From Escherichia phage vB_EcoS_HdK1: DNA of 64,000 bases. A program made the position numbers and the translations under genes. Location: the sequence record MK373794.1; one strand, written 5' to 3'. The first letter of the stretch is position 1, and each line of letters opens with the position of its first letter. Below, piece by piece: positions 1 to 64,000 of the stretch. Below the pieces are notes generated by a model. It made no database searches. It had not been told where the DNA came from and saw only the letters and a program-made list of their open reading frames with translations.

Positions 1-105
1 TTTATATAAATACACACATATACACATTTTTACCTTATTTTTCATGCACTTACCTCCTTTCATTTCGTATATTAAGCGACAATATACGAGCAATATAAGA
101 AATAT

Positions 106-119
106 TTGTTGCGCAACAA
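106..119. repeat. Perfect 14-bp palindrome TTGTTGCGCAACAA in the non-coding control region (second copy at 60798..60811)
   Basis: Read directly from the sequence; lies in the ~1.07-kb non-coding region spanning 60336..60692 and 1..678. Confidence 0.6.
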
Positions 120-617
120 CGAGGCGCTCACAAGCTCGCGCACGCGCATAATGCGGGCACGCGGTCTAACACAAAAGAAAATTGAATTGCAAGCGATTTT
201 TGCTGAGGTAACTCTCGAAGCGAAAGCGATTTGCGAGTTTGAAATTTTGTAGCCCGAAAACGATTCTATTTTATGGTATAAATGTCGGATTTTTCGGTGA
301 AAGGTGGCTTTTCGGTGAGGTTGGGTGGCTGGGATCGGTGTAACTGGTAGCCCATAAAGCGAAAATAGCCGCGAAAACGGGGCACGCAGCGCGATTAAAT
401 GGTTGGATCAGTGTAAGGGTGGCGGTGAGGGGGCGAAAATGCCGCAAAATCGCTTACAGGGATGCAGGGAGTGGGCCGCTGTAAGGGCGTATAAGGCGAT
501 TAAATTGGAGTCTATGGTAATGTATGGAAGATGGATTTAGGCTCTTAGAGCGCGAATGGTGGAGCTATGGGTGAGGAATATGTGGTCAGCAGGGTAGCGC
601 GGGAGGTTATGCAGGTA

Positions 618-660
618 CAAAAACGAAAGCGCCCCGTTGGACTTCAACAGGGCGCGGATT
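618..660 (-). terminator. Rho-independent terminator ending the leftward early operon
   Basis: GC-rich inverted repeat GCGCCC..GGGCGC directly downstream of the stop of the 679..927 gene; on the minus strand it is followed by a T-rich tract. Confidence 0.55.
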
Positions 661-678
661 GTATAATGCTTTTAGAAG

Positions 679-927
679 TTATTTACTAGTTAATAATACC
701 GCCCAGGTATTATCTGGAAGCGTACCAACTCCGAGTATCTTAAACTGAAGCGACTTGTTCTGCATGTTGTAGTTGTCGAGTAACTCCTGGGCAGCCGCAG
801 CAGCGTTCGCTTCACCGTTCAGGTTGTAGTCGTTTGCAGTTATTGCACACATACCGAGACCGACCGCTTTGAAGCGCATACCTTTGGATTGAGTCGGTGC
901 AAGTGCTTTAACATGGATAGCGTTCAT
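679..927 (-). CDS. Hypothetical early protein, 82 aa (paralog family A)
   Basis: ORF track; shares an AAAA(Q/E)EL..F(K/E)ILG/SGG..P(D)..(W/Y)A pattern with the 1458..1703 product. Confidence 0.5.
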   Translation of the reverse strand: MNAIHVKALAPTQSKGMRFKAVGLGMCAITANDYNLNGEANAAAAAQELLDNYNMQNKSLQFKILGVGTLPDNTWAVLLTSK

Positions 928-956
928 ATTATTTATCTCCGTTACAATTTGAAAGG

Positions 957-1220
957 TTAGCAGTTTTTTAACAGGTTGATGAAGCCCACCAGCGTGGACG
1001 CTGTTGCAACCAGGCGGCCCATAGTATGCAGTTCCGCGTAAACTTTACCGTCGTCAAACACAGTTAAATAAACGTTAAGACCATTGCAACGGACGCGATA
1101 TTTGCGCGAGTTATTACCAAAAGTTTCCAGCTCTGCGGTGATAGTCGCAAGATTAGCTATACGTTTGCCGATAATGCGGCGAGTGATAGTGGACTGGTTT
1201 AATACTGTAGACATAATCAT
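957..1220 (-). CDS. Hypothetical early protein, 87 aa (paralog family B)
   Basis: ORF track; N-terminal motif STITRRIIGKRI matches SQITKRIIGKRL of the 2529..2835 product; AGAGG ribosome-binding site upstream. Confidence 0.5.
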   Translation of the reverse strand: MIMSTVLNQSTITRRIIGKRIANLATITAELETFGNNSRKYRVRCNGLNVYLTVFDDGKVYAELHTMGRLVATASTLVGFINLLKNC

Positions 1221-1245
1221 TTCCTCTGTTAACTATGCGAAGTGC

Positions 1246-1274
1246 ATATTATTGCCCACTGTTACTATGGGCAA
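1246..1274 (-). promoter_or_regulatory. Sigma70-like promoter (minus strand: -35 TTGCCC, 17-bp spacer, -10 TAATAT) overlapped by an inverted repeat (candidate operator)
   Basis: Hexamers and spacing read from the reverse complement; inverted repeat TTGCCCA-N9-TGGGCAA at 1252..1274 covers the -35 box and spacer; lies 26 bp upstream of the 957..1220 start. Confidence 0.45.
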
Positions 1275-1282
1275 TGTATATG

Positions 1283-1447
1283 TCACTCAGCGGACACATA
1301 TTCTAACGCTTCTGATAGTGTAGCGAAGTAACCATCGCTCACCAGATTAATAGCGTACTCAAGTTGATCGCGGGTCAGGTTGCGAAACTTGTTACGGATG
1401 TGATAGCAACGACCGCGATAAATAACCTGGAAATAGTTGCGTTCCAT
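1283..1447 (-). CDS. Hypothetical small protein, 54 aa
   Basis: Internal ATG of the 1283..1603 track ORF preceded by AAGGGG; the longer track ORF would overlap the neighbouring gene. Confidence 0.4.
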   Translation of the reverse strand: MERNYFQVIYRGRCYHIRNKFRNLTRDQLEYAINLVSDGYFATLSEALEYVSAE

Positions 1448-1457
1448 AATTATCCCC

Positions 1458-1703
1458 TTATGCAACGATGAACGCGTAACCGCTTTGATCCGGGAGTTCA
1501 CCACCGGAAAGAATTTCAAACTCAACGCCCGCTTTATCGCTGAACTTTTTGATAAGCTCTTCCGCTGCGGCGCGGTGGTTGCCGTAAACACCAAGATCGT
1601 CACGCCACGTGATAGTCAAGGAGCCGTTCCAACCTGTTGCTTTTACGCGCGGGTTACGGGTGGCAGTCGGGTTCATGAATTTTGTGATGATAGCTTGAGC
1701 CAT
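1458..1703 (-). CDS. Hypothetical early protein, 81 aa (paralog family A)
   Basis: ORF track; paralogous to the 679..927 product. Confidence 0.5.
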   Translation of the reverse strand: MAQAIITKFMNPTATRNPRVKATGWNGSLTITWRDDLGVYGNHRAAAEELIKKFSDKAGVEFEILSGGELPDQSGYAFIVA

Positions 1704-1708
1704 GATAA

Positions 1709-1894
1709 TTACTCCGGTAAAATTACAGTGACGTTAATATTTGCAAGGCGAGCGCACTCGCGGAAACCTTTTACATAAGCATCCATTTCGTCATAGGATG
1801 CGAAAGTTGCGTCCGGGACTGGTCCGTTGTTAATATTCACGCAATATTCGTGTTCGTCCAGGTCAACCCAACAAGTCAGAACGATAGTTTCCAT
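1709..1894 (-). CDS. Hypothetical small protein, about 61 aa
   Basis: Internal ATG (METIVL..) preceded by GGAGGG; acidic, Cys-containing. Confidence 0.4.
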   Translation of the reverse strand: METIVLTCWVDLDEHEYCVNINNGPVPDATFASYDEMDAYVKGFRECARLANINVTVILPE

Positions 1895-1972
1895 ATTATT
1901 TGCCCTCCGTATAATACAGACCCGCAACTATTGGAGCTCCGAAAACTAAGAAAGCTAATAAATAGAACATAA

Positions 1973-2452
1973 TTAGTTACCCCCTTTATTGTTGAGCCCG
2001 TTGAATTTACGCCATGCGTAGAATTCAATCGTTGCATTATTAATATTCCAACCATTAGCTTTCGCAAGGTCACGGACGTTACCAATAGTTGGCACACCAT
2101 CAGGCAACATATTATCCAGGGCATTCCAAACGTCTGCGCATTTACCTTTAATCGGGCGACGAACCCCGTTGCGCGTTTCGCTGCGCGTTTTGCTCTTGGC
2201 TGGAGCGACCGGAGCTTGTTGTGTGGTCACTTCCACGACAGTCGCTTTATCAGCTTCCACCAGATCGCTAGCTGCCTTATTAACCGCGCTTTCGCTGTAC
2301 CAGTAGCGACCACCGTCTTCGTGCGGTTCCTGGTGAATAAAGCTATTTGCTGTCGCAGTGTCCACATCCAGAACCTTTTTTAAGGCACGGCGAGCGTTAG
2401 ACATAGTGGCGAAGAAGCGAGCGTCTTTTGCTACGCGAGTGATAGTAACCAT
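1973..2452 (-). CDS. Hypothetical early protein, about 159 aa
   Basis: ORF track; start placed at the ATG preceded by GGAGAT; no recognisable catalytic motif. Confidence 0.45.
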   Translation of the reverse strand: MVTITRVAKDARFFATMSNARRALKKVLDVDTATANSFIHQEPHEDGGRYWYSESAVNKAASDLVEADKATVVEVTTQQAPVAPAKSKTRSETRNGVRRPIKGKCADVWNALDNMLPDGVPTIGNVRDLAKANGWNINNATIEFYAWRKFNGLNNKGGN

Positions 2453-2492
2453 TGTGAATATCTCCATGTTGTTCTAGCGGATTGCTAGTGGG

Positions 2493-2513
2493 AGCCCACT
2501 GTTACAATGGGCA
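2493..2513. repeat. Second copy of the conserved inverted-repeat element GCCCACTGTTAC(A/T)ATGGGCAA
   Basis: Near-identical to 1252..1274; both sit in intergenic gaps between leftward early genes. Confidence 0.55.
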
Positions 2514-2528
2514 ACCATTAGCACGCTA

Positions 2529-2835
2529 TTATTGTTGAATAGCTTTATCTATCATTGCGATGAAGCAGAACACAGACCAAAGGCTATTCGCTTGGCATAC
2601 TGCGCGACCATACATTACGCTATAAGAGCTGACAGTACCGTCCTCGTTAATGCGAATATATAACGCGGTGCTGGAATACTTTTCGTTGCCCGGGAGCATT
2701 ACTAAATACTCGTCGAAACCCCAATCCCCGTCGACTTTTTCCGCAGTAAGGCCCAGTTGGTGCAGTCGCTTGCCAATAATGCGCTTAGTAATCTGAGATT
2801 GGGACATGGAACGCGGTAAGTAGATAATGGACATA
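2529..2835 (-). CDS. Hypothetical early protein, about 102 aa (paralog family B)
   Basis: ORF track; start placed at the ATG preceded by AAGGGAG; paralogous to the 957..1220 product. Confidence 0.5.
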
Positions 2836-2909
2836 ATGCAATCTCCCTTCGGGTGAGGCGGGCGCGGAACCCGTGTCCCGCTTAACAACCCCCTTAACCC
2901 TACACAGTT

Positions 2910-2938
2910 ATAGTATGACAACGGGGTATCAGATGCAA
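2910..2938 (-). promoter_or_regulatory. Sigma70-like early promoter for the leftward operon (minus strand: -35 TTGCAT, 17 bp, -10 TACTAT)
   Basis: Hexamers and spacing read from the reverse complement, about 75 bp upstream of the first leftward gene. Confidence 0.4.
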
Positions 2939-3014
2939 CTATTATCTGCAATATTTTAGAACTTTTTTAGTTGTGTTTCATAATAATAACATCCGGGACT
3001 ATGCGGTAGATGGT

Positions 3015-3088
3015 GTGCCGGAAATACCAGGTAGCGCGAGCGTGCCGAAAATACCAGGTAACAGCACGCGCCGAACATACCAGGTAGC
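3015..3088. repeat. Three tandem ~27-bp iteron-like repeats (core ATACCAGGTA) followed by an AT-rich tract; candidate origin or protein-binding array (second copy 63707..63780)
   Basis: GTGCCGGAAATACCAGGTAGC / GTGCCGAAAATACCAGGTAAC / CGCCGAACATACCAGGTAGC read directly; AT-rich stretch at about 3130..3230. Confidence 0.55.
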
Positions 3089-3476
3089 ACATACATAGAC
3101 AGCACATAGTGGGCAGGTGGATAGTAACAGATGCAATTATACTGGACGGTACAGTATAGTCATGTAATAGATAGCATACTAATTAAATAAAAAATAATAA
3201 CGCGTGTAACAATAAACAACGTTACAGTAGAGCGCGCAACAGTCACATGACGTAACAATCACCTCACTGACGATCACGGGACGTTATAGTAACGCCGCGG
3301 GGCGGCTCTTAGATCTCTGCCAAGGATTCTAGACGTAAACATTGAATCGCCACTAGACTATTTACATCACAACCTCACTCCTCACACAATAATACATAGA
3401 ATTTAAATCCGTATATAAATACTCGAGATAGTATCTACATATTCGAGGATGAGTGCTCAATCATTGTAGGTTATAA

Positions 3477-3956
3477 ATGCGTATCAATTGGTGTGATTAT
3501 TTCTCTTACGAAGATGGTAGACTTTACTGGAAGGCCAGTAGAGGAAGAATACGAGTAGGTTCAGAAGCCGGAAGCGAGGACCAACAAGGTTACATTGTGG
3601 TCAGGTTAAACGGGAAAGATTATAAAGCCCACCGCATCATTTGGGAAATGCACTATGGGCCGATACCAGAAGGAATGGAAGTTGACCACATTTGGCATAA
3701 CCGAAAAGATAACCGGATTGAGAATCTGCGGTTAGTGACGCGTACAGGTAATGGGCGTAATCAGTCTAAATTTGCGACAAATACATCAGGTGTAACTGGT
3801 GTGAATTGGAATAGCCGGGCTGGTAAATGGAGAGCGGAAATTTATGTTGATGGAAAGCATATATCTCTTGGTTTATTCACAATCTTTAATGATGCTGTCT
3901 TAGCGCGTAAATCGGCCGAGGCTAAGTATGGTTTCCATAAAAATCATGGCGAGTGA
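3477..3956 (+). CDS. HNH endonuclease with a C-terminal AP2-like DNA-binding domain (homing-endonuclease type)
   Basis: HNH motif region AHRIIWEMHYGPIPEGMEVDHIWHNRKDNRIENLRLV, then a GVTGV..W.A.I pattern typical of AP2 domains. Confidence 0.8.
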   Translation: MRINWCDYFSYEDGRLYWKASRGRIRVGSEAGSEDQQGYIVVRLNGKDYKAHRIIWEMHYGPIPEGMEVDHIWHNRKDNRIENLRLVTRTGNGRNQSKFATNTSGVTGVNWNSRAGKWRAEIYVDGKHISLGLFTIFNDAVLARKSAEAKYGFHKNHGE

Positions 3957-59446: not shown

Positions 59447-60335
59447 TTCCTCCAGATATCACGCGATTCTTTAATACGGATGTTATACCGTATAAGTTGC
59501 TGCATAACTTTATGCAGGTCATCGAGATGCTTCCTTAAACGAAGACGTTTCTTGATAGCCCACAAGTTCTTCATATCCGTTCGTTGGAGATCCTCCCTTA
59601 AATACAATGAAAAGTCAGTCTGGTGATCTAAGATAAATTGGATACGCATCAAAGTATCCGACTTACGATAATCAGGATACCACTTAGGAAGCACATCTTG
59701 TTCGCCAATCATCTTACGCTCCAAACTGATCAATGTATTCAATGAGCTCTTGCAATTCTTGCTGTAACTGCACATTACCACTATTATTCGTCTGAAGTCT
59801 AACGAGGCGTTCCTTGATATGTGCAATGTGGTTAGTGCCCATCCGACGCTTCTGTACATCACACCAGCGAACAACACCATCTTCAATATATGCACGACGG
59901 GCTTTACCACGCGGGTATCGCAGCGGCGCCGAATTTCACACTTATCGCCCACCCACTTAAAGCCCAGGATCATAACAGCGTTACCTTCCGTATCAGGACA
60001 CACGTCAAAACAACTGTTGAACCCTTTACTGCGCATATACTCGTCGAGCGGAATCACCTTATCAGGCGACAACCATTGATACCCGAAGTAAATATCGACA
60101 GTGAACACCGTACCCAACATCGGAGCCGACCAGCACATATACATCCGCCCGTCATCCAACTTCTTGACCGCATTCGGCCCGCAACACGAGGCCAGCCGCC
60201 TTCCACGCTTTGACCACATTAATCGTGTTGTCCTGCTCCTGAAAGATTGCGTCTGCCTGCATATATGTAGGCGCGTCCCAGCCCGAACATTTCCTTTACA
60301 TGAGCATTAGTGATTTTAACCTTTTGATTGCGCAT
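59443..60335 (-). CDS. First gene of the leftward replication-block operon; hypothetical, with apparent internal frameshifts
   Basis: ATG at 60335 preceded by AGGTGAGG; protein-like reading switches frame at least twice before joining track ORF 59443..60219. Confidence 0.3.
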
Positions 60336-60414
60336 AACCTCACCTTTGATGATAATAAATCGATTAATTTTGAAATTCAGTTGCCGGTTTTATGTTTATT
60401 TTACGCAATGTGTT

Positions 60415-60545
60415 TTGCAATACAATATTGATATATTTTGTTTTTGCATTGCAATGTTTTTGTATTGCAAAAATTACAACAGTCTGAAGGTGAGAAATTG
60501 CAAATTTATAAAGATTGGTGAAAAAATGCACAATTTATAAAGATT
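60415..60545. promoter_or_regulatory. Early control region with four ATTGCAA/TTGCAAT half-site motifs (one perfect palindrome ATTGCAAT at 60448..60455) and a 14-bp direct repeat AATTTATAAAGATT (60503..60516 and 60532..60545)
   Basis: Motifs read directly from the sequence in the AT-rich region upstream of the leftward replication operon. Confidence 0.45.
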
Positions 60546-61309
60546 CAGCAATATACGAAACGGCGAAGCGAAGTGTATGAAAAATAAGGGAAAATTTCGA
60601 GAGTTGGGAGGTTTGTAGTGATTTATATTATTTATAAAGGGGTCTCGTGGGGTCGTCAGTAGACAACTCAAAAATAAAAAATCTTTATAAAATTTATATA
60701 AATACACACATATACACATTTTTACCTTATTTTTCATGCACTTACCTCCTTTCATTTCGTATATTAAGCGACAATATACGAGCAATATAAGAAATATTTG
60801 TTGCGCAACAACGAGGCGCTCACAAGCTCGCGCACGCGCATAATGCGGGCACGCGGTCTAACACAAAAGAAAATTGAATTGCAAGCGATTTTTGCTGAGG
60901 TAACTCTCGAAGCGAAAGCGATTTGCGAGTTTGAAATTTTGTAGCCCGAAAACGATTCTATTTTATGGTATAAATGTCGGATTTTTCGGTGAAAGGTGGC
61001 TTTTCGGTGAGGTTGGGTGGCTGGGATCGGTGTAACTGGTAGCCCATAAAGCGAAAATAGCCGCGAAAACGGGGCACGCAGCGCGATTAAATGGTTGGAT
61101 CAGTGTAAGGGTGGCGGTGAGGGGGCGAAAATGCCGCAAAATCGCTTACAGGGATGCAGGGAGTGGGCCGCTGTAAGGGCGTATAAGGCGATTAAATTGG
61201 AGTCTATGGTAATGTATGGAAGATGGATTTAGGCTCTTAGAGCGCGAATGGTGGAGCTATGGGTGAGGAATATGTGGTCAGCAGGGTAGCGCGGGAGGTT
61301 ATGCAGGTA

Positions 61310-61352
61310 CAAAAACGAAAGCGCCCCGTTGGACTTCAACAGGGCGCGGATT
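61310..61352 (-). terminator. Second copy of the early-operon terminator (same as 618..660)
   Basis: Within the terminal duplication. Confidence 0.55.
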
Positions 61353-61370
61353 GTATAATGCTTTTAGAAG

Positions 61371-61619
61371 TTATTTACTAGTTAATAATACCGCCCAGGT
61401 ATTATCTGGAAGCGTACCAACTCCGAGTATCTTAAACTGAAGCGACTTGTTCTGCATGTTGTAGTTGTCGAGTAACTCCTGGGCAGCCGCAGCAGCGTTC
61501 GCTTCACCGTTCAGGTTGTAGTCGTTTGCAGTTATTGCACACATACCGAGACCGACCGCTTTGAAGCGCATACCTTTGGATTGAGTCGGTGCAAGTGCTT
61601 TAACATGGATAGCGTTCAT
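61371..61619 (-). CDS. Duplicate of the 679..927 gene (paralog family A)
   Basis: Identical translation in the ORF track. Confidence 0.5.
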   Translation of the reverse strand: MNAIHVKALAPTQSKGMRFKAVGLGMCAITANDYNLNGEANAAAAAQELLDNYNMQNKSLQFKILGVGTLPDNTWAVLLTSK

Positions 61620-61648
61620 ATTATTTATCTCCGTTACAATTTGAAAGG

Positions 61649-61912
61649 TTAGCAGTTTTTTAACAGGTTGATGAAGCCCACCAGCGTGGACGCTGTTGCA
61701 ACCAGGCGGCCCATAGTATGCAGTTCCGCGTAAACTTTACCGTCGTCAAACACAGTTAAATAAACGTTAAGACCATTGCAACGGACGCGATATTTGCGCG
61801 AGTTATTACCAAAAGTTTCCAGCTCTGCGGTGATAGTCGCAAGATTAGCTATACGTTTGCCGATAATGCGGCGAGTGATAGTGGACTGGTTTAATACTGT
61901 AGACATAATCAT
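61649..61912 (-). CDS. Duplicate of the 957..1220 gene (paralog family B)
   Basis: Identical translation in the ORF track. Confidence 0.5.
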   Translation of the reverse strand: MIMSTVLNQSTITRRIIGKRIANLATITAELETFGNNSRKYRVRCNGLNVYLTVFDDGKVYAELHTMGRLVATASTLVGFINLLKNC

Positions 61913-61974
61913 TTCCTCTGTTAACTATGCGAAGTGCATATTATTGCCCACTGTTACTATGGGCAATGTATATG

Positions 61975-62139
61975 TCACTCAGCGGACACATATTCTAACG
62001 CTTCTGATAGTGTAGCGAAGTAACCATCGCTCACCAGATTAATAGCGTACTCAAGTTGATCGCGGGTCAGGTTGCGAAACTTGTTACGGATGTGATAGCA
62101 ACGACCGCGATAAATAACCTGGAAATAGTTGCGTTCCAT
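61975..62139 (-). CDS. Duplicate of the 1283..1447 gene
   Basis: Within the terminal duplication. Confidence 0.4.
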   Translation of the reverse strand: MERNYFQVIYRGRCYHIRNKFRNLTRDQLEYAINLVSDGYFATLSEALEYVSAE

Positions 62140-62149
62140 AATTATCCCC

Positions 62150-62395
62150 TTATGCAACGATGAACGCGTAACCGCTTTGATCCGGGAGTTCACCACCGGA
62201 AAGAATTTCAAACTCAACGCCCGCTTTATCGCTGAACTTTTTGATAAGCTCTTCCGCTGCGGCGCGGTGGTTGCCGTAAACACCAAGATCGTCACGCCAC
62301 GTGATAGTCAAGGAGCCGTTCCAACCTGTTGCTTTTACGCGCGGGTTACGGGTGGCAGTCGGGTTCATGAATTTTGTGATGATAGCTTGAGCCAT
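62150..62395 (-). CDS. Duplicate of the 1458..1703 gene
   Basis: Identical translation in the ORF track. Confidence 0.5.
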   Translation of the reverse strand: MAQAIITKFMNPTATRNPRVKATGWNGSLTITWRDDLGVYGNHRAAAEELIKKFSDKAGVEFEILSGGELPDQSGYAFIVA

Positions 62396-62400
62396 GATAA

Positions 62401-62586
62401 TTACTCCGGTAAAATTACAGTGACGTTAATATTTGCAAGGCGAGCGCACTCGCGGAAACCTTTTACATAAGCATCCATTTCGTCATAGGATGCGAAAGTT
62501 GCGTCCGGGACTGGTCCGTTGTTAATATTCACGCAATATTCGTGTTCGTCCAGGTCAACCCAACAAGTCAGAACGATAGTTTCCAT
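62401..62586 (-). CDS. Duplicate of the 1709..1894 gene
   Basis: Within the terminal duplication. Confidence 0.4.
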   Translation of the reverse strand: METIVLTCWVDLDEHEYCVNINNGPVPDATFASYDEMDAYVKGFRECARLANINVTVILPE

Positions 62587-62664
62587 ATTATTTGCCCTCC
62601 GTATAATACAGACCCGCAACTATTGGAGCTCCGAAAACTAAGAAAGCTAATAAATAGAACATAA

Positions 62665-63144
62665 TTAGTTACCCCCTTTATTGTTGAGCCCGTTGAATTT
62701 ACGCCATGCGTAGAATTCAATCGTTGCATTATTAATATTCCAACCATTAGCTTTCGCAAGGTCACGGACGTTACCAATAGTTGGCACACCATCAGGCAAC
62801 ATATTATCCAGGGCATTCCAAACGTCTGCGCATTTACCTTTAATCGGGCGACGAACCCCGTTGCGCGTTTCGCTGCGCGTTTTGCTCTTGGCTGGAGCGA
62901 CCGGAGCTTGTTGTGTGGTCACTTCCACGACAGTCGCTTTATCAGCTTCCACCAGATCGCTAGCTGCCTTATTAACCGCGCTTTCGCTGTACCAGTAGCG
63001 ACCACCGTCTTCGTGCGGTTCCTGGTGAATAAAGCTATTTGCTGTCGCAGTGTCCACATCCAGAACCTTTTTTAAGGCACGGCGAGCGTTAGACATAGTG
63101 GCGAAGAAGCGAGCGTCTTTTGCTACGCGAGTGATAGTAACCAT
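62665..63144 (-). CDS. Duplicate of the 1973..2452 gene
   Basis: Identical translation in the ORF track. Confidence 0.45.
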   Translation of the reverse strand: MVTITRVAKDARFFATMSNARRALKKVLDVDTATANSFIHQEPHEDGGRYWYSESAVNKAASDLVEADKATVVEVTTQQAPVAPAKSKTRSETRNGVRRPIKGKCADVWNALDNMLPDGVPTIGNVRDLAKANGWNINNATIEFYAWRKFNGLNNKGGN

Positions 63145-63220
63145 TGTGAATATCTCCATGTTGTTCTAGCGGATTGCTAGTGGGAGCCCACTGTTACAAT
63201 GGGCAACCATTAGCACGCTA

Positions 63221-63527
63221 TTATTGTTGAATAGCTTTATCTATCATTGCGATGAAGCAGAACACAGACCAAAGGCTATTCGCTTGGCATACTGCGCGAC
63301 CATACATTACGCTATAAGAGCTGACAGTACCGTCCTCGTTAATGCGAATATATAACGCGGTGCTGGAATACTTTTCGTTGCCCGGGAGCATTACTAAATA
63401 CTCGTCGAAACCCCAATCCCCGTCGACTTTTTCCGCAGTAAGGCCCAGTTGGTGCAGTCGCTTGCCAATAATGCGCTTAGTAATCTGAGATTGGGACATG
63501 GAACGCGGTAAGTAGATAATGGACATA
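63221..63527 (-). CDS. Duplicate of the 2529..2835 gene
   Basis: Identical translation in the ORF track. Confidence 0.5.
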
Positions 63528-63706
63528 ATGCAATCTCCCTTCGGGTGAGGCGGGCGCGGAACCCGTGTCCCGCTTAACAACCCCCTTAACCCTACACAGT
63601 TATAGTATGACAACGGGGTATCAGATGCAACTATTATCTGCAATATTTTAGAACTTTTTTAGTTGTGTTTCATAATAATAACATCCGGGACTATGCGGTA
63701 GATGGT

Positions 63707-63780
63707 GTGCCGGAAATACCAGGTAGCGCGAGCGTGCCGAAAATACCAGGTAACAGCACGCGCCGAACATACCAGGTAGC
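63707..63780. repeat. Second copy of the three tandem iteron-like repeats (same as 3015..3088)
   Basis: Within the terminal duplication. Confidence 0.55.
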
Positions 63781-64000
63781 ACATACATAGACAGCACATA
63801 GTGGGCAGGTGGATAGTAACAGATGCAATTATACTGGACGGTACAGTATAGTCATGTAATAGATAGCATACTAATTAAATAAAAAATAATAACGCGTGTA
63901 ACAATAAACAACGTTACAGTAGAGCGCGCAACAGTCACATGACGTAACAATCACCTCACTGACGATCACGGGACGTTATAGTAACGCCGCGGGGCGGCTC

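What the first reader, a model, noticed from the sequence alone, without database searches (positions are those of the whole stretch)
679..2835. Two families of paralogous small proteins in the leftward early operon
The 679..927 and 1458..1703 products share an AAAA(Q/E)EL..F(K/E)IL motif, and the 957..1220 and 2529..2835 products share an N-terminal S(T/Q)IT(R/K)RIIGKR(I/L) motif. Intra-genome duplication and divergence of early genes is characteristic of host-takeover or anti-defence loci under diversifying selection.
Basis: seen in the sequence. Interest (0 to 1): 0.45.

Follow-up and report, generated by a model that had tools for sequence, protein, structure and literature searches.

The report
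Paralogous small early phage proteins
A 9g-like coliphage carries two copies each of two families of small proteins of unknown function in a short early-type operon inside its long terminal repeat; the paralogy is real but old, and the result is mainly a good set of candidates for experiments, not a surprise.

Summary
Both similarities are real. A1 (679-927) and A2 (1458-1703) are 37% identical (E=7e-11, shuffle z=14.7). B1 (957-1220) and B2 (2529-2834, not 2835) are 34% identical (E=4e-8, z=13.0). PHROGs already groups each pair: phrog_3199 and phrog_13865, both of unknown function.

The window is a Nonagvirus (9g-like) genome. The seven-gene leftward operon lies wholly inside a ~3.3 kb direct terminal repeat.

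Family A is very large (about 2,000 clusters at 50% identity), found in many unrelated virulent phages of Proteobacteria, and has no Pfam or PDB relative. Family B is confined to Queuovirinae.

The "recent duplication under diversifying selection" reading holds only in part:
- A1 and A2 are never sister lineages (0/200 bootstraps).
- Gene-wide dN/dS is 0.09-0.25 for all seven genes.
- B1 and B2 are 89-99% conserved between phages.
- A1 and A2 are hotspots of allele replacement: 60-70% identity classes inside flanks at least 95% identical.
- B followed by A is a conserved gene pair in relatives, overlapping by 4 nt in 4 of 5.
- The A1 allele type tracks B1 presence in 13 of 13 genomes.

Function is unknown. 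Early host-directed binding proteins are the best guess.

The parts
1..3308 (.). Left copy of the long direct terminal repeat. It contains the whole leftward operon and its promoter region.
   Evidence: Window 1-3308 is identical to 60693-64000 (0 mismatches). The independent record HdSG1 carries the same operon at both ends, giving a 3,363-bp repeat that ends at the equivalent intergenic point.
60693..64000 (.). Right copy of the terminal repeat. Second copies: A1 61371-61619, B1 61649-61912, A2 62150-62395, B2 63221-63526.
629..655 (-). Intrinsic terminator that ends the leftward operon.
   Evidence: 11-bp stem with 8 G-C pairs, followed by TTTCGTTTTT. Folding energy -21.7 kcal/mol, z=-5.3. 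Annotated as a terminator in HdSG1 and SP8.
679..927 (-). A1, 82 aa, family A (phrog_3199). It is the divergent paralogue and the last gene of the operon.
   Evidence: GGAG lies upstream of the ATG. Present in 13/13 Nonagvirus genomes, in three allele classes of 60-68% identity.
957..1220 (-). B1, 87 aa (85 aa if started at 1214, as annotated in relatives), family B (phrog_13865).
   Evidence: Present in 9/13 Nonagvirus genomes, always together with A1 allele class I.
1243..1284 (-). RNA stem-loop 2 (core GCCCATAGTAACAGTGGGC at 1254-1272), between C and B1.
   Evidence: -15.7 kcal/mol, z=-3.5. The motif occurs only twice per genome, against 0.03 expected. 95-100% conserved in 12 relatives.
1283..1447 (-). 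C, 54 aa, phrog_18706, unknown function.
   Evidence: Absent only from ChristophMerian.
1458..1703 (-). A2, 81 aa, family A (phrog_3199). It is the canonical-type paralogue.
   Evidence: Present in 12/13 genomes in several allele classes of 65-86% identity. AF2 model pLDDT 79, topology beta3-alpha-beta2.
1709..1894 (-). D, 61 aa, phrog_5461, unknown function.
1973..2467 (-). E, 159-164 aa (the likely start is 2452, where GGAG lies upstream), phrog_17772. Conserved in all Queuovirinae loci examined.
2483..2523 (-). RNA stem-loop 1 (core GCCCATTGTAACAGTGGGC at 2494-2512), between B2 and E.
   Evidence: -23.2 kcal/mol, z=-5.0
2529..2834 (-). B2, 101 aa, family B (phrog_13865), first gene of the operon.
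   Evidence: Intact in 12/13 genomes and 89-99% identical. AF2 model pLDDT 79, alpha-beta5-alpha.
2953..3163 (-). Promoter/leader region. It holds two sigma-70-like matches (3163-3136 ATGACT-16-TATAAT and 2981-2953 ATGAAA-17-TAAAAT). Three 23-nt direct repeats (3014-3089) lie between them.
   Evidence: These are consensus matches only. BPROM promoters are annotated at the equivalent place in phage 9g.

Best explanation
The region is the early-type accessory operon of a Nonagvirus (9g-like, Queuovirinae) coliphage. It has seven small genes, in the order B2-E-D-A2-C-B1-A1, read leftward from host-type promoters to an intrinsic terminator. The whole operon lies inside a ~3.3 kb direct terminal repeat. 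Two conserved RNA stem-loops divide it into B2 | E-D-A2-C | B1-A1.

It holds two members of each of two small-protein families.

Family A (phrog_3199, about 80 aa, beta3-alpha-beta2 fold) is a very large, uncharacterised family of virulent phages of Proteobacteria. In T7-like phages it sits among the class I early genes. A1 and A2 are old, separately derived lineages of this family, not a recent duplicate pair. Both keep the family-wide invariant polar residues (T13, R19, N42, G68, P71). Both are replaced as whole alleles between otherwise near-identical phages.

Family B (phrog_13865, about 90-100 aa, alpha-beta5-alpha sandwich with conserved terminal helices and a more variable sheet) exists only in Queuovirinae. 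Its ancestral position is directly upstream of, and usually overlapping, an A1-type gene. B then A is therefore a conserved two-gene module. The coli/Salmonella Nonagvirus lineage carries an additional B (B2) and an additional A (A2).

Inferred mechanism, not shown: these are non-enzymatic binding proteins made by host RNA polymerase immediately after DNA entry. A engages a conserved host ligand or macromolecule through its invariant loops, with an exchangeable specificity surface. B acts with the adjacent A as a partner or adaptor. The two copies cover different variants of the target.
For: Identity of the phage: 90-96% DNA identity to JenP2, HdSG1, 9g and others.

Operon anatomy: ORFs with Shine-Dalgarno sequences, promoter matches and a terminator, stem-loops.

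Terminal repeat. A related Pseudomonas Queuovirinae phage has experimentally determined terminal repeats (PMC10484667).

Paralogy.

Family A:
- Size and spread: 1,995 clusters at E<=1e-3. 123 phage records across Escherichia, Pseudomonas, Klebsiella, Salmonella, Vibrio and Roseobacter phages.
- Position: between the genome end and the 0.7 kinase/RNA polymerase genes in Klebsiella T7-like phage RCIP0028.
- Absent from 72,556 plasmids. Only one hit to the canonical motif in 185,579 bacterial genomes.
- Fold: (BFVD models of relatives, TM 0.8-0.9).
- A1 and A2 are not sisters: and (0/200 bootstraps).
- Invariant residues shared by A1 and A2 and by the family.
- Allele replacement confined to the A genes.

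Family B:
- Restricted to contigs of about 60 kb of Queuovirinae type.
- Helices are more conserved than the sheet: 0.80-0.88 against 0.55-0.72.
- B followed by A in 5/5 B-bearing relatives, overlapping by 4 nt in 4 of them.
- A1 class I goes with B1 in 9/9 genomes, and other A1 classes go with no B1 in 4/4.

Purifying selection on all seven genes.
Against: - No expression data: 'early' rests on promoter-like matches, position and analogy.
A2 and B2 are not adjacent. 9g-type phages have A1 without B1, so A clearly works without B.
- The association between A1 class and B1 could simply reflect co-inheritance of neighbouring DNA.
- The neighbour-joining tree uses only 81 columns, and A1 is a long branch. 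From A1's side, its best non-self matches are A2 alleles (41.5 bits), so an ancient in-lineage duplication followed by fast divergence of A1 is not excluded.
- The terminal repeat is taken from deposited records, not from read data.
Confidence: 0.55

Rival explanations
1. Each pair arose by duplication within this phage lineage and has since been driven apart by positive (diversifying) selection in an arms race with host defences.
For: - Family B exists only in Queuovirinae, so B1 and B2 must have diverged within that lineage.
- From A1's side, its closest non-self relatives are A2 alleles.
- The A genes are by far the most variable genes of the operon.
Against: - The A1 and A2 clades are never sisters (0/200), and A2 is closer to Pseudomonas-phage homologues (49%) than to A1 (37%).
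- dN/dS is 0.09-0.22.
- B1 and B2 are 89-99% conserved.
- Variation in A comes as discrete classes with sharp boundaries at the gene ends and saturated dS (up to about 2). That is the signature of imported alleles, not of in-place divergence.
Confidence: 0.12
2. B and A form an obligate two-protein complex (effector plus chaperone/adaptor, or a toxin-antidote-like pair). The genome carries two such systems, B1-A1 and B2-A2.
For: - The B-then-A order is conserved in 5/5 relatives, with a 4-nt start/stop overlap in 4.
- B1 presence co-occurs perfectly with one A1 allele class.
- Both families are doubled in the same operon.
Against: - Family A occurs in more than 100 phage records that have no B.
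- Four Nonagviruses have A1 without B1. ChristophMerian has B2 without A2, and FritzHoffmann has A2 without intact B2.
- B2 and A2 are separated by two genes and an RNA stem-loop.
Confidence: 0.25
3. Family A proteins are anti-restriction or other anti-defence proteins. A2 (or its neighbour C) protects against a type I R-M-linked barrier.
For: - In T7-like phages the family occupies the early-gene slot where Ocr-type genes lie.
- The allele-replacement hotspot pattern fits counter-defence genes.
- In the BASEL phenotyping, ChristophMerian (Bas19) is the only Nonagvirus sensitive to EcoKI (PMC8594841). It is also the only Nonagvirus of the 13 compared that lacks A2 and C.
Against: - Only two Nonagviruses were phenotyped.
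- The BASEL table lists 0 EcoKI sites for Bas19, so its reduced plating is itself unexplained.
- Queuovirinae resistance to R-M is already attributed to deazaguanine DNA modification.
- No similarity to any Pfam anti-restriction family.
Confidence: 0.12
4. Family B (and perhaps A) proteins are small phage transcription or nucleic-acid-binding regulators that control the early-to-middle switch, rather than host-directed effectors.
For: - B has a conserved basic N-terminal helix (ITRRIIGKR).
- There are weak local matches to lambda Cro.
- The A fold resembles HicB-N and dsRBD-like RNA/DNA-associated folds.
- Direct repeats lie between the two promoter-like sites.
Against: - All these matches are below any significance threshold: Cro scores 11.9 bits against a cut-off of 32.7, and the PDB E-value is about 1.
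- B1 is dispensable in 4 of 13 phages and B2 in 1 of 13. That is unusual for a core regulator.
- The repeats were not shown to bind anything.
Confidence: 0.1

Closest known systems
PHROG families phrog_3199 (A) and phrog_13865 (B)
   Same: Both A genes match phrog_3199 and both B genes match phrog_13865 with strong E-values. The grouping of each pair is therefore already implicit in a public resource.
   Different: Both PHROGs are labelled 'unknown function'. No paper mentioning either was found. The gene-pair arrangement, the allele turnover and the terminal-repeat location are not recorded there.
Early or pre-early gene blocks at phage genome ends: T5 pre-early genes in the ~10 kb terminal repeat, the SPO1 host-takeover module in its terminal redundancy, and T7 class I genes 0.3-0.7 (from general knowledge)
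   Same: A cluster of small, mostly orphan proteins, read from host-type promoters, placed at the genome end and here inside a long direct terminal repeat. A family A member sits in the T7-like class I region of a Klebsiella phage. The inter-gene RNA stem-loops recall the RNase III sites of T7 early mRNA.
   Different: No sequence or clear fold homology to any characterised T5, T7 or SPO1 early protein. Timing, two-step injection and host shut-off are untested for Nonagvirus.
HicB N-terminal domain / UPF0150 (TTHA1756), a partial RNase H-like fold
Small alpha-beta-sandwich protein-binding modules: TriTu immunity protein, PsiB, frataxin/CyaY, type III secretion chaperones, MotA C-terminal domain
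   Different: No sequence relationship. The hits have mutually unrelated functions, so the fold alone gives no function.

Membership tests
phrog_3199 (family A) | Significant full-length match to the family HMM. | tested here: met
   A1 E=1.1e-25 and A2 E=1.4e-28, residues 1-80 on profile positions 1-80. A profile of A1 and A2 recovers 1,995 clusters.
phrog_13865 (family B) | Significant full-length match to the family HMM. | tested here: met
   B1 E=6.9e-37 and B2 E=2.1e-60.
Recent in-genome paralogues (duplicate pair) | The two copies are each other's closest relatives (sister lineages) within the wider family. | tested here: not met
   Family A: the A1 and A2 clades are sisters in 0/200 neighbour-joining bootstraps, and A1 ranks 149th of 155 among A2's matches. 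Family B: B2 lies outside (B1 + Klebsiella-type B) at 33-34% against 50-63% identity, so this is also not a recent duplication. Its origin within Queuovirinae is nevertheless likely.
Genes under diversifying (positive) selection | dN/dS above 1 gene-wide or at sites. | tested here: not met
   Gene-wide NG86 dN/dS is 0.09-0.25 for all seven genes. Site models were not run. dS between allele classes is saturated, so the test is weak for A1 and A2.
HicB-type antitoxin (N-terminal domain / UPF0150) | Sequence match to the family. | tested here: not met
   No Pfam hit for A1, A2 or 40 diverse relatives. No PDB sequence hit.
HicB-type antitoxin (N-terminal domain / UPF0150) | Shared fold. | tested here: inconclusive
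HicB-type antitoxin (N-terminal domain / UPF0150) | An adjacent HicA toxin gene. | tested here: not met
Known anti-restriction / anti-defence families represented in Pfam (for example Ocr, ArdA, KlcA/ArdB) | Sequence match to a family model. | tested here: not met
   Pfam scan of all seven operon proteins at E<=1 gave only noise. No dedicated anti-defence HMM library was available, so newer families were not tested.
Lambda Cro family | A Pfam Cro match above the gathering score. | tested here: not met
   B1 scores 11.9 bits against a cut-off of 32.7. The B profile against PDB Cro gives E about 1, over one beta-hairpin only.
T5-type pre-early (first-step-transfer) gene block | Genes located in a long direct terminal repeat at the genome end. 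| tested here: met
   Window 1-3308 equals 60693-64000. The HdSG1 record has the same 3,363-bp repeat.
T5-type pre-early (first-step-transfer) gene block | Two-step DNA injection, and expression before the rest of the genome. | not testable with these tools
   No transcriptome or injection data for any Nonagvirus were found.

The most novel reading that the evidence does not exclude
Family A (phrog_3199) is a previously unrecognised, very widespread class of early counter-defence or host-takeover effectors of virulent phages of Proteobacteria. Whole alleles are swapped between phages to track host variation. In Queuovirinae it works with a lineage-specific partner (family B) as a translationally coupled two-gene module. 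This phage carries two functionally distinct sets of the module in its terminal repeat, which may be the first DNA to enter the cell.
Probability: 0.15. Interest if true: 0.6.

Novelty: new member of a known kind. Interest (0 to 1): 0.3.

Why it matters
Small orphan early genes are where most phage counter-defence and host-takeover functions have been found, and most remain uncharacterised.

This analysis turns a vague 'paralogues' remark into testable material:
- Family A is a phage family of about 2,000 clusters with no Pfam entry, no solved structure and no published function. It has a confident fold model, invariant polar loops and a clear signature of allele turnover.
- There is a conserved B-then-A gene pair to test for interaction.
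- Natural knock-outs exist in the BASEL collection: Bas19 lacks A2 and C, and Bas20 lacks intact B2. They can be compared directly.

If the genes turn out to be ordinary dispensable accessory genes, little is lost. As it stands, the finding is a routine feature of phage early regions.

Tried and rejected
- Pfam, NCBIfam and PADLOC scans of all seven proteins gave nothing above noise. Pfam on 42 diverse family A members gave 0 hits.
- PDB sequence searches with single profiles and with deeper profiles gave nothing significant.
- Names from sequence sources were all 'hypothetical protein' or absent.
A back-translated TKYLGPTNTRG pattern hit only one MAG contig among 185,579 genomes.
- The similarity of the B beta-hairpin to lambda Cro (..YLTV.DDGKVYAE.. 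against ..FLTINADGSVYAE..) was rejected as local and non-significant.
- Literature on Bas19/Bas20 (retron, Zorya/Druantia/ARMADA and AbiA papers) gave no escape mutants or triggers mapping to these genes.
- The Bas19 EcoKI lead was kept only as a weak hypothesis. Only two phages were phenotyped, and the BASEL table lists zero EcoKI sites for Bas19.
- Rfam found no known RNA family in 1-3600.
Full report
**What the window is.** The first 6 kb match Nonagvirus (9g-like, Queuovirinae) coliphages at 90-96% DNA identity. JenP2, HdSG1, JenK1 and ESCO3 are the closest. Window 1-3308 is identical to 60693-64000, so the unique genome is 60,692 bp. This is not just a wrap-around artefact. The independent record of phage HdSG1 (63,595 bp, linear) carries the same seven genes at both ends, at 745-2888 and 60977-63120. 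That is a 3,363-bp direct terminal repeat whose inner end falls at the equivalent point of the divergent intergenic region. The paper describing HdSG1 and HdK1 gives Nonagvirus sizes 'up to 64 kb' (PMC6563267). A Pseudomonas Queuovirinae phage has experimentally determined terminal repeats (PMC10484667). The window is probably HdK1 or a close relative; this is an inference.

**Check of the observation.** On the minus strand the region holds seven ORFs with Shine-Dalgarno sequences. In order of transcription they are:
- B2, 2834-2529
- E, 2467/2452-1973
- D, 1894-1709
- A2, 1703-1458
- C, 1447-1283
- B1, 1220-957
- A1, 927-679

A1 and A2 are 37% identical over 73 residues (E=7e-11). B1 and B2 are 34% identical over 77 residues (E=4e-8). 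Against 1000 shuffles the local alignment scores are 14.7 and 13.0 standard deviations above the mean, and no shuffle reaches them. All other pairs among the seven proteins are unremarkable, the best being C against D at z=5.3. The only errors are that the end of B2 is 2834, not 2835, and that A2 has AAAEEL rather than AAAAEEL. PHROGs assigns A1 and A2 to phrog_3199 and B1 and B2 to phrog_13865, both 'unknown function'. A six-frame search of the whole window finds no further member of either family apart from the terminal-repeat copies.

**Operon anatomy.**
- A strong intrinsic terminator (655-629, -21.7 kcal/mol) follows A1.
- Upstream of B2 there are two sigma-70-like matches, at 3163-3136 and 2981-2953. 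They share a similar -10/start region, and three 23-nt direct repeats (3014-3089) lie between them.
- Two stable RNA stem-loops share the core GCCCAT(A/T)GTAACAGTGGGC. This motif occurs nowhere else in the genome. They fold at -23.2 and -15.7 kcal/mol and are 95-100% conserved in 12 relatives.
- The stem-loops split the transcript into B2 | E-D-A2-C | B1-A1. By analogy with the RNase III sites of T7 early mRNA (general knowledge), they may be processing or stabilising elements.
- Rfam has no match in this region.
- 'Early' is an inference from this anatomy, from the terminal-repeat location, and from the position of a family A gene among the class I genes of a T7-like Klebsiella phage. No transcriptome was found.

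**Family A.** A word-indexed search found only Nonagvirus orthologues. A profile of A1, A2 and orthologues searched against 1.84 billion representatives found 1,995 clusters at E<=1e-3 and 102 at E<=1e-10. Nearly all are proteins of 75-110 aa. The family consensus is MQAIxTKYLGPTNTRGxRxKAT...NHxAAAxAL...GxLPDGxGYAFV, with T13, R19, A22, N42, A46/47, G68 and P71 nearly invariant. A1 and A2 both keep these residues.

tblastn finds family A in 123 phage records. They include Pseudomonas myophages, T7-like podophages, chi-like and rV5-like phages, Seuratvirus, and Vibrio, Aeromonas and Roseobacter phages. All are annotated as hypothetical. The family is absent from 72,556 plasmids. A back-translated canonical motif hits one MAG contig in 185,579 bacterial and archaeal genomes. 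It is therefore essentially a family of virulent phages.

**Are the pairs recent duplicates?** For family A, no.
- A2 is 41-55% identical to members from unrelated phages, for example 49% to Pseudomonas phage Pyxpy01, but only 37% to A1.
- Among 155 family members, A1 ranks 149th in A2's hit list.
- In a neighbour-joining tree the A1 clade (195/200) and the A2 clade (171/200) are each supported but are never sisters (0/200).
- The caveat is that A1 is a long branch whose best non-self matches are A2 alleles. An old duplication with accelerated A1 evolution therefore cannot be excluded.

For family B, the restriction to Queuovirinae implies divergence within that lineage. Even so, B2 (33-34% to all others) lies outside B1 plus the Klebsiella-type B proteins (50-63%), so this split is old too.

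**Selection and turnover.** I compared the operon across the window and 12 other Nonagvirus genomes. Gene content varies:
- B1 is missing from 9g, SE1, SP8 and JenP1.
- A2 and C are missing from ChristophMerian.
- B2 is not intact in FritzHoffmann.
- BRET, PD328 and SP8 have an extra 88-aa gene.

Pairwise Nei-Gojobori dN/dS is 0.22 (A1), 0.19 (A2), 0.15 (B1), 0.09 (B2) and 0.11-0.25 for C, D and E. These values are similar to those of five genes of the rightward operon. All seven genes are therefore under purifying selection overall.

A1 and A2 nevertheless have a mean dS of about 0.7, against 0.09-0.37 for their neighbours. Their proteins fall into discrete classes of 60-70% identity, while B1, B2, C, D and E stay 89-100% identical. 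Nucleotide identity to the window drops to 69-74% strictly within A1 or A2, while adjacent genes and the stem-loops remain 95-100%. This is allele replacement by recombination. It is a pattern seen in counter-defence and receptor-binding genes, but it is not itself evidence of positive selection.

**A conserved B-then-A module.** In the Klebsiella Queuovirinae phage K9PH25C2 and in four metagenomic relatives retrieved through their B protein, the gene immediately after B is a family A member of the A1 type. It overlaps B by 4 nt in four cases and is separated from it by one 63-aa gene in the fifth. The pair ends the operon. In the 13 Nonagviruses, A1 allele class I is present exactly where B1 is present (9/9). 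The other A1 classes occur where B1 is absent (4/4). This suggests a functional pair, but it is equally what linkage would give. A also occurs without B in most phages.

**Most likely mechanism (inferred).** These are small, non-enzymatic early proteins expressed from host-type promoters on the terminal repeat.
- A uses its invariant polar loops to bind a conserved ligand or host macromolecule. By the model's secondary structure these loops are the beta1-beta2 loop GPTNTRGSR, the NH at the start of the helix, and LPD between beta4 and beta5. A also has an exchangeable surface.
- B acts with the adjacent A.
- The second copies extend the range of targets.

I put about 0.55 on the descriptive and evolutionary account and about 0.25 on this mechanistic part. 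The rival explanations are listed separately.

**A weak lead.** In the BASEL phenotyping, ChristophMerian (Bas19) is the only Nonagvirus with reduced plating on EcoKI (PMC8594841; raw data about 0.03). It is also the only one of the 13 genomes lacking A2 and C. However, only two Nonagviruses were tested. The BASEL table also lists zero EcoKI sites for Bas19, so the phenotype is itself odd.

**Novelty and verdict.** The paralogy is real but already implicit in PHROGs, and paralogous orphan genes in early accessory regions are common in phages. The refinements are useful but not surprising to a specialist: old rather than recent paralogues, allele-replacement hotspots, a B-A gene pair, the terminal-repeat location, and a very large phage-only family without a Pfam entry or a structure. 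Interest is 0.3. The most novel reading not excluded is that family A is a new widespread class of early counter-defence or takeover effectors with a Queuovirinae-specific partner. I give that a probability of about 0.15 and an interest of about 0.6 if true.

Noticed in passing
window 1-3308 and 60693-64000: These two stretches are an exact 3,308-bp repeat, so the unique genome is 60,692 bp. The HdSG1 record has the equivalent 3,363-bp direct terminal repeat. The whole leftward operon is therefore diploid in virion DNA and sits at the genome ends, as with T5 pre-early genes.
   Followed up: partly
window 1243-1284 and 2483-2523 (minus strand): Two stable RNA stem-loops share the core GCCCAT(A/T)GTAACAGTGGGC (-15.7 and -23.2 kcal/mol). 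The motif is unique to this operon and 95-100% conserved in relatives. The stem-loops have no U-tract. They may be RNase III-type processing or mRNA-stabilising elements that split the operon into three segments.
   Followed up: partly
window 2926-3163 (minus strand): Three 23-nt direct repeats (3014-3089, spacing 26-27 nt; consensus on the transcribed (minus) strand approximately TACCTGGTAT(T/G)TTCGGC(A/G)CG) lie between two promoter-like sites. Those sites share a near-identical -10/start segment (ATAAT(T/A)GTTGCATCTG(T/A)TAC at 3140-3124 and 2942-2926). This could be an operator array or tandem promoters.
   Followed up: no
window 3477-3956 (+): The first rightward gene is an HNH_3 + AP2 homing endonuclease (Pfam E=1e-22). 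JenP2, HdSG1, 9g and others have an unrelated 288-nt gene at this position. The surrounding intergenic DNA (3171-3500) is only about 83% identical to all relatives.
   Followed up: partly
window 60220-61370, including 60439-60545 and 60674-60703: A gene-free stretch of about 1.15 kb spans the left boundary of the terminal repeat. It contains short tandem repeats (16-nt and 29-nt units) and an AT-rich ATATAAAATCT repeat exactly at the boundary (60692/60693). A similar gene-free gap of 1.0-1.2 kb follows the A gene in all related loci. This may be the terminus or packaging region.
   Followed up: no
ChristophMerian (L012) and FritzHoffmann (L011) against window 1283-1703 and 2529-2834: These are natural knock-outs in the BASEL collection. 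Bas19 lacks A2 and C. Bas20 has only a 174-nt remnant in place of B2. In the BASEL data Bas19 shows plating efficiency of about 0.03 on EcoKI although its genome is listed with zero EcoKI sites.
   Followed up: partly
window 1283-1447 against 1709-1894 (minus strand): Proteins C (54 aa) and D (61 aa) show a marginal similarity (Smith-Waterman z=5.3, 1 of 1000 shuffles). They may be a third, very diverged pair, or this may be chance.
   Followed up: no
BRET (L009 2042-2308), PD328 (L010 2041-2307), SP8 (L013 1753-2019): An extra 88-aa gene is inserted between A2 and D in three relatives. It is absent from the window and matches neither family A nor family B. This is further evidence that the operon is a mosaic of small cassettes.
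   Followed up: no
window 1973-2467 (minus strand): Protein E is the only operon member conserved in every Queuovirinae locus examined, including Seuratvirus CAjan. Its C-terminal 70 residues match four further PHROGs of unknown function, so it may be the core gene of the operon.
   Followed up: no
bioRxiv 10.64898/2026.07.11.737809: The preprint calls Bas20 and Bas21 'Markadamsvirinae (T5-like)'. By GenBank taxonomy they are Nonagvirus and Seuratvirus. Their shared sensitivity to retron-Kva2 with T5 therefore needs another explanation.
   Followed up: no
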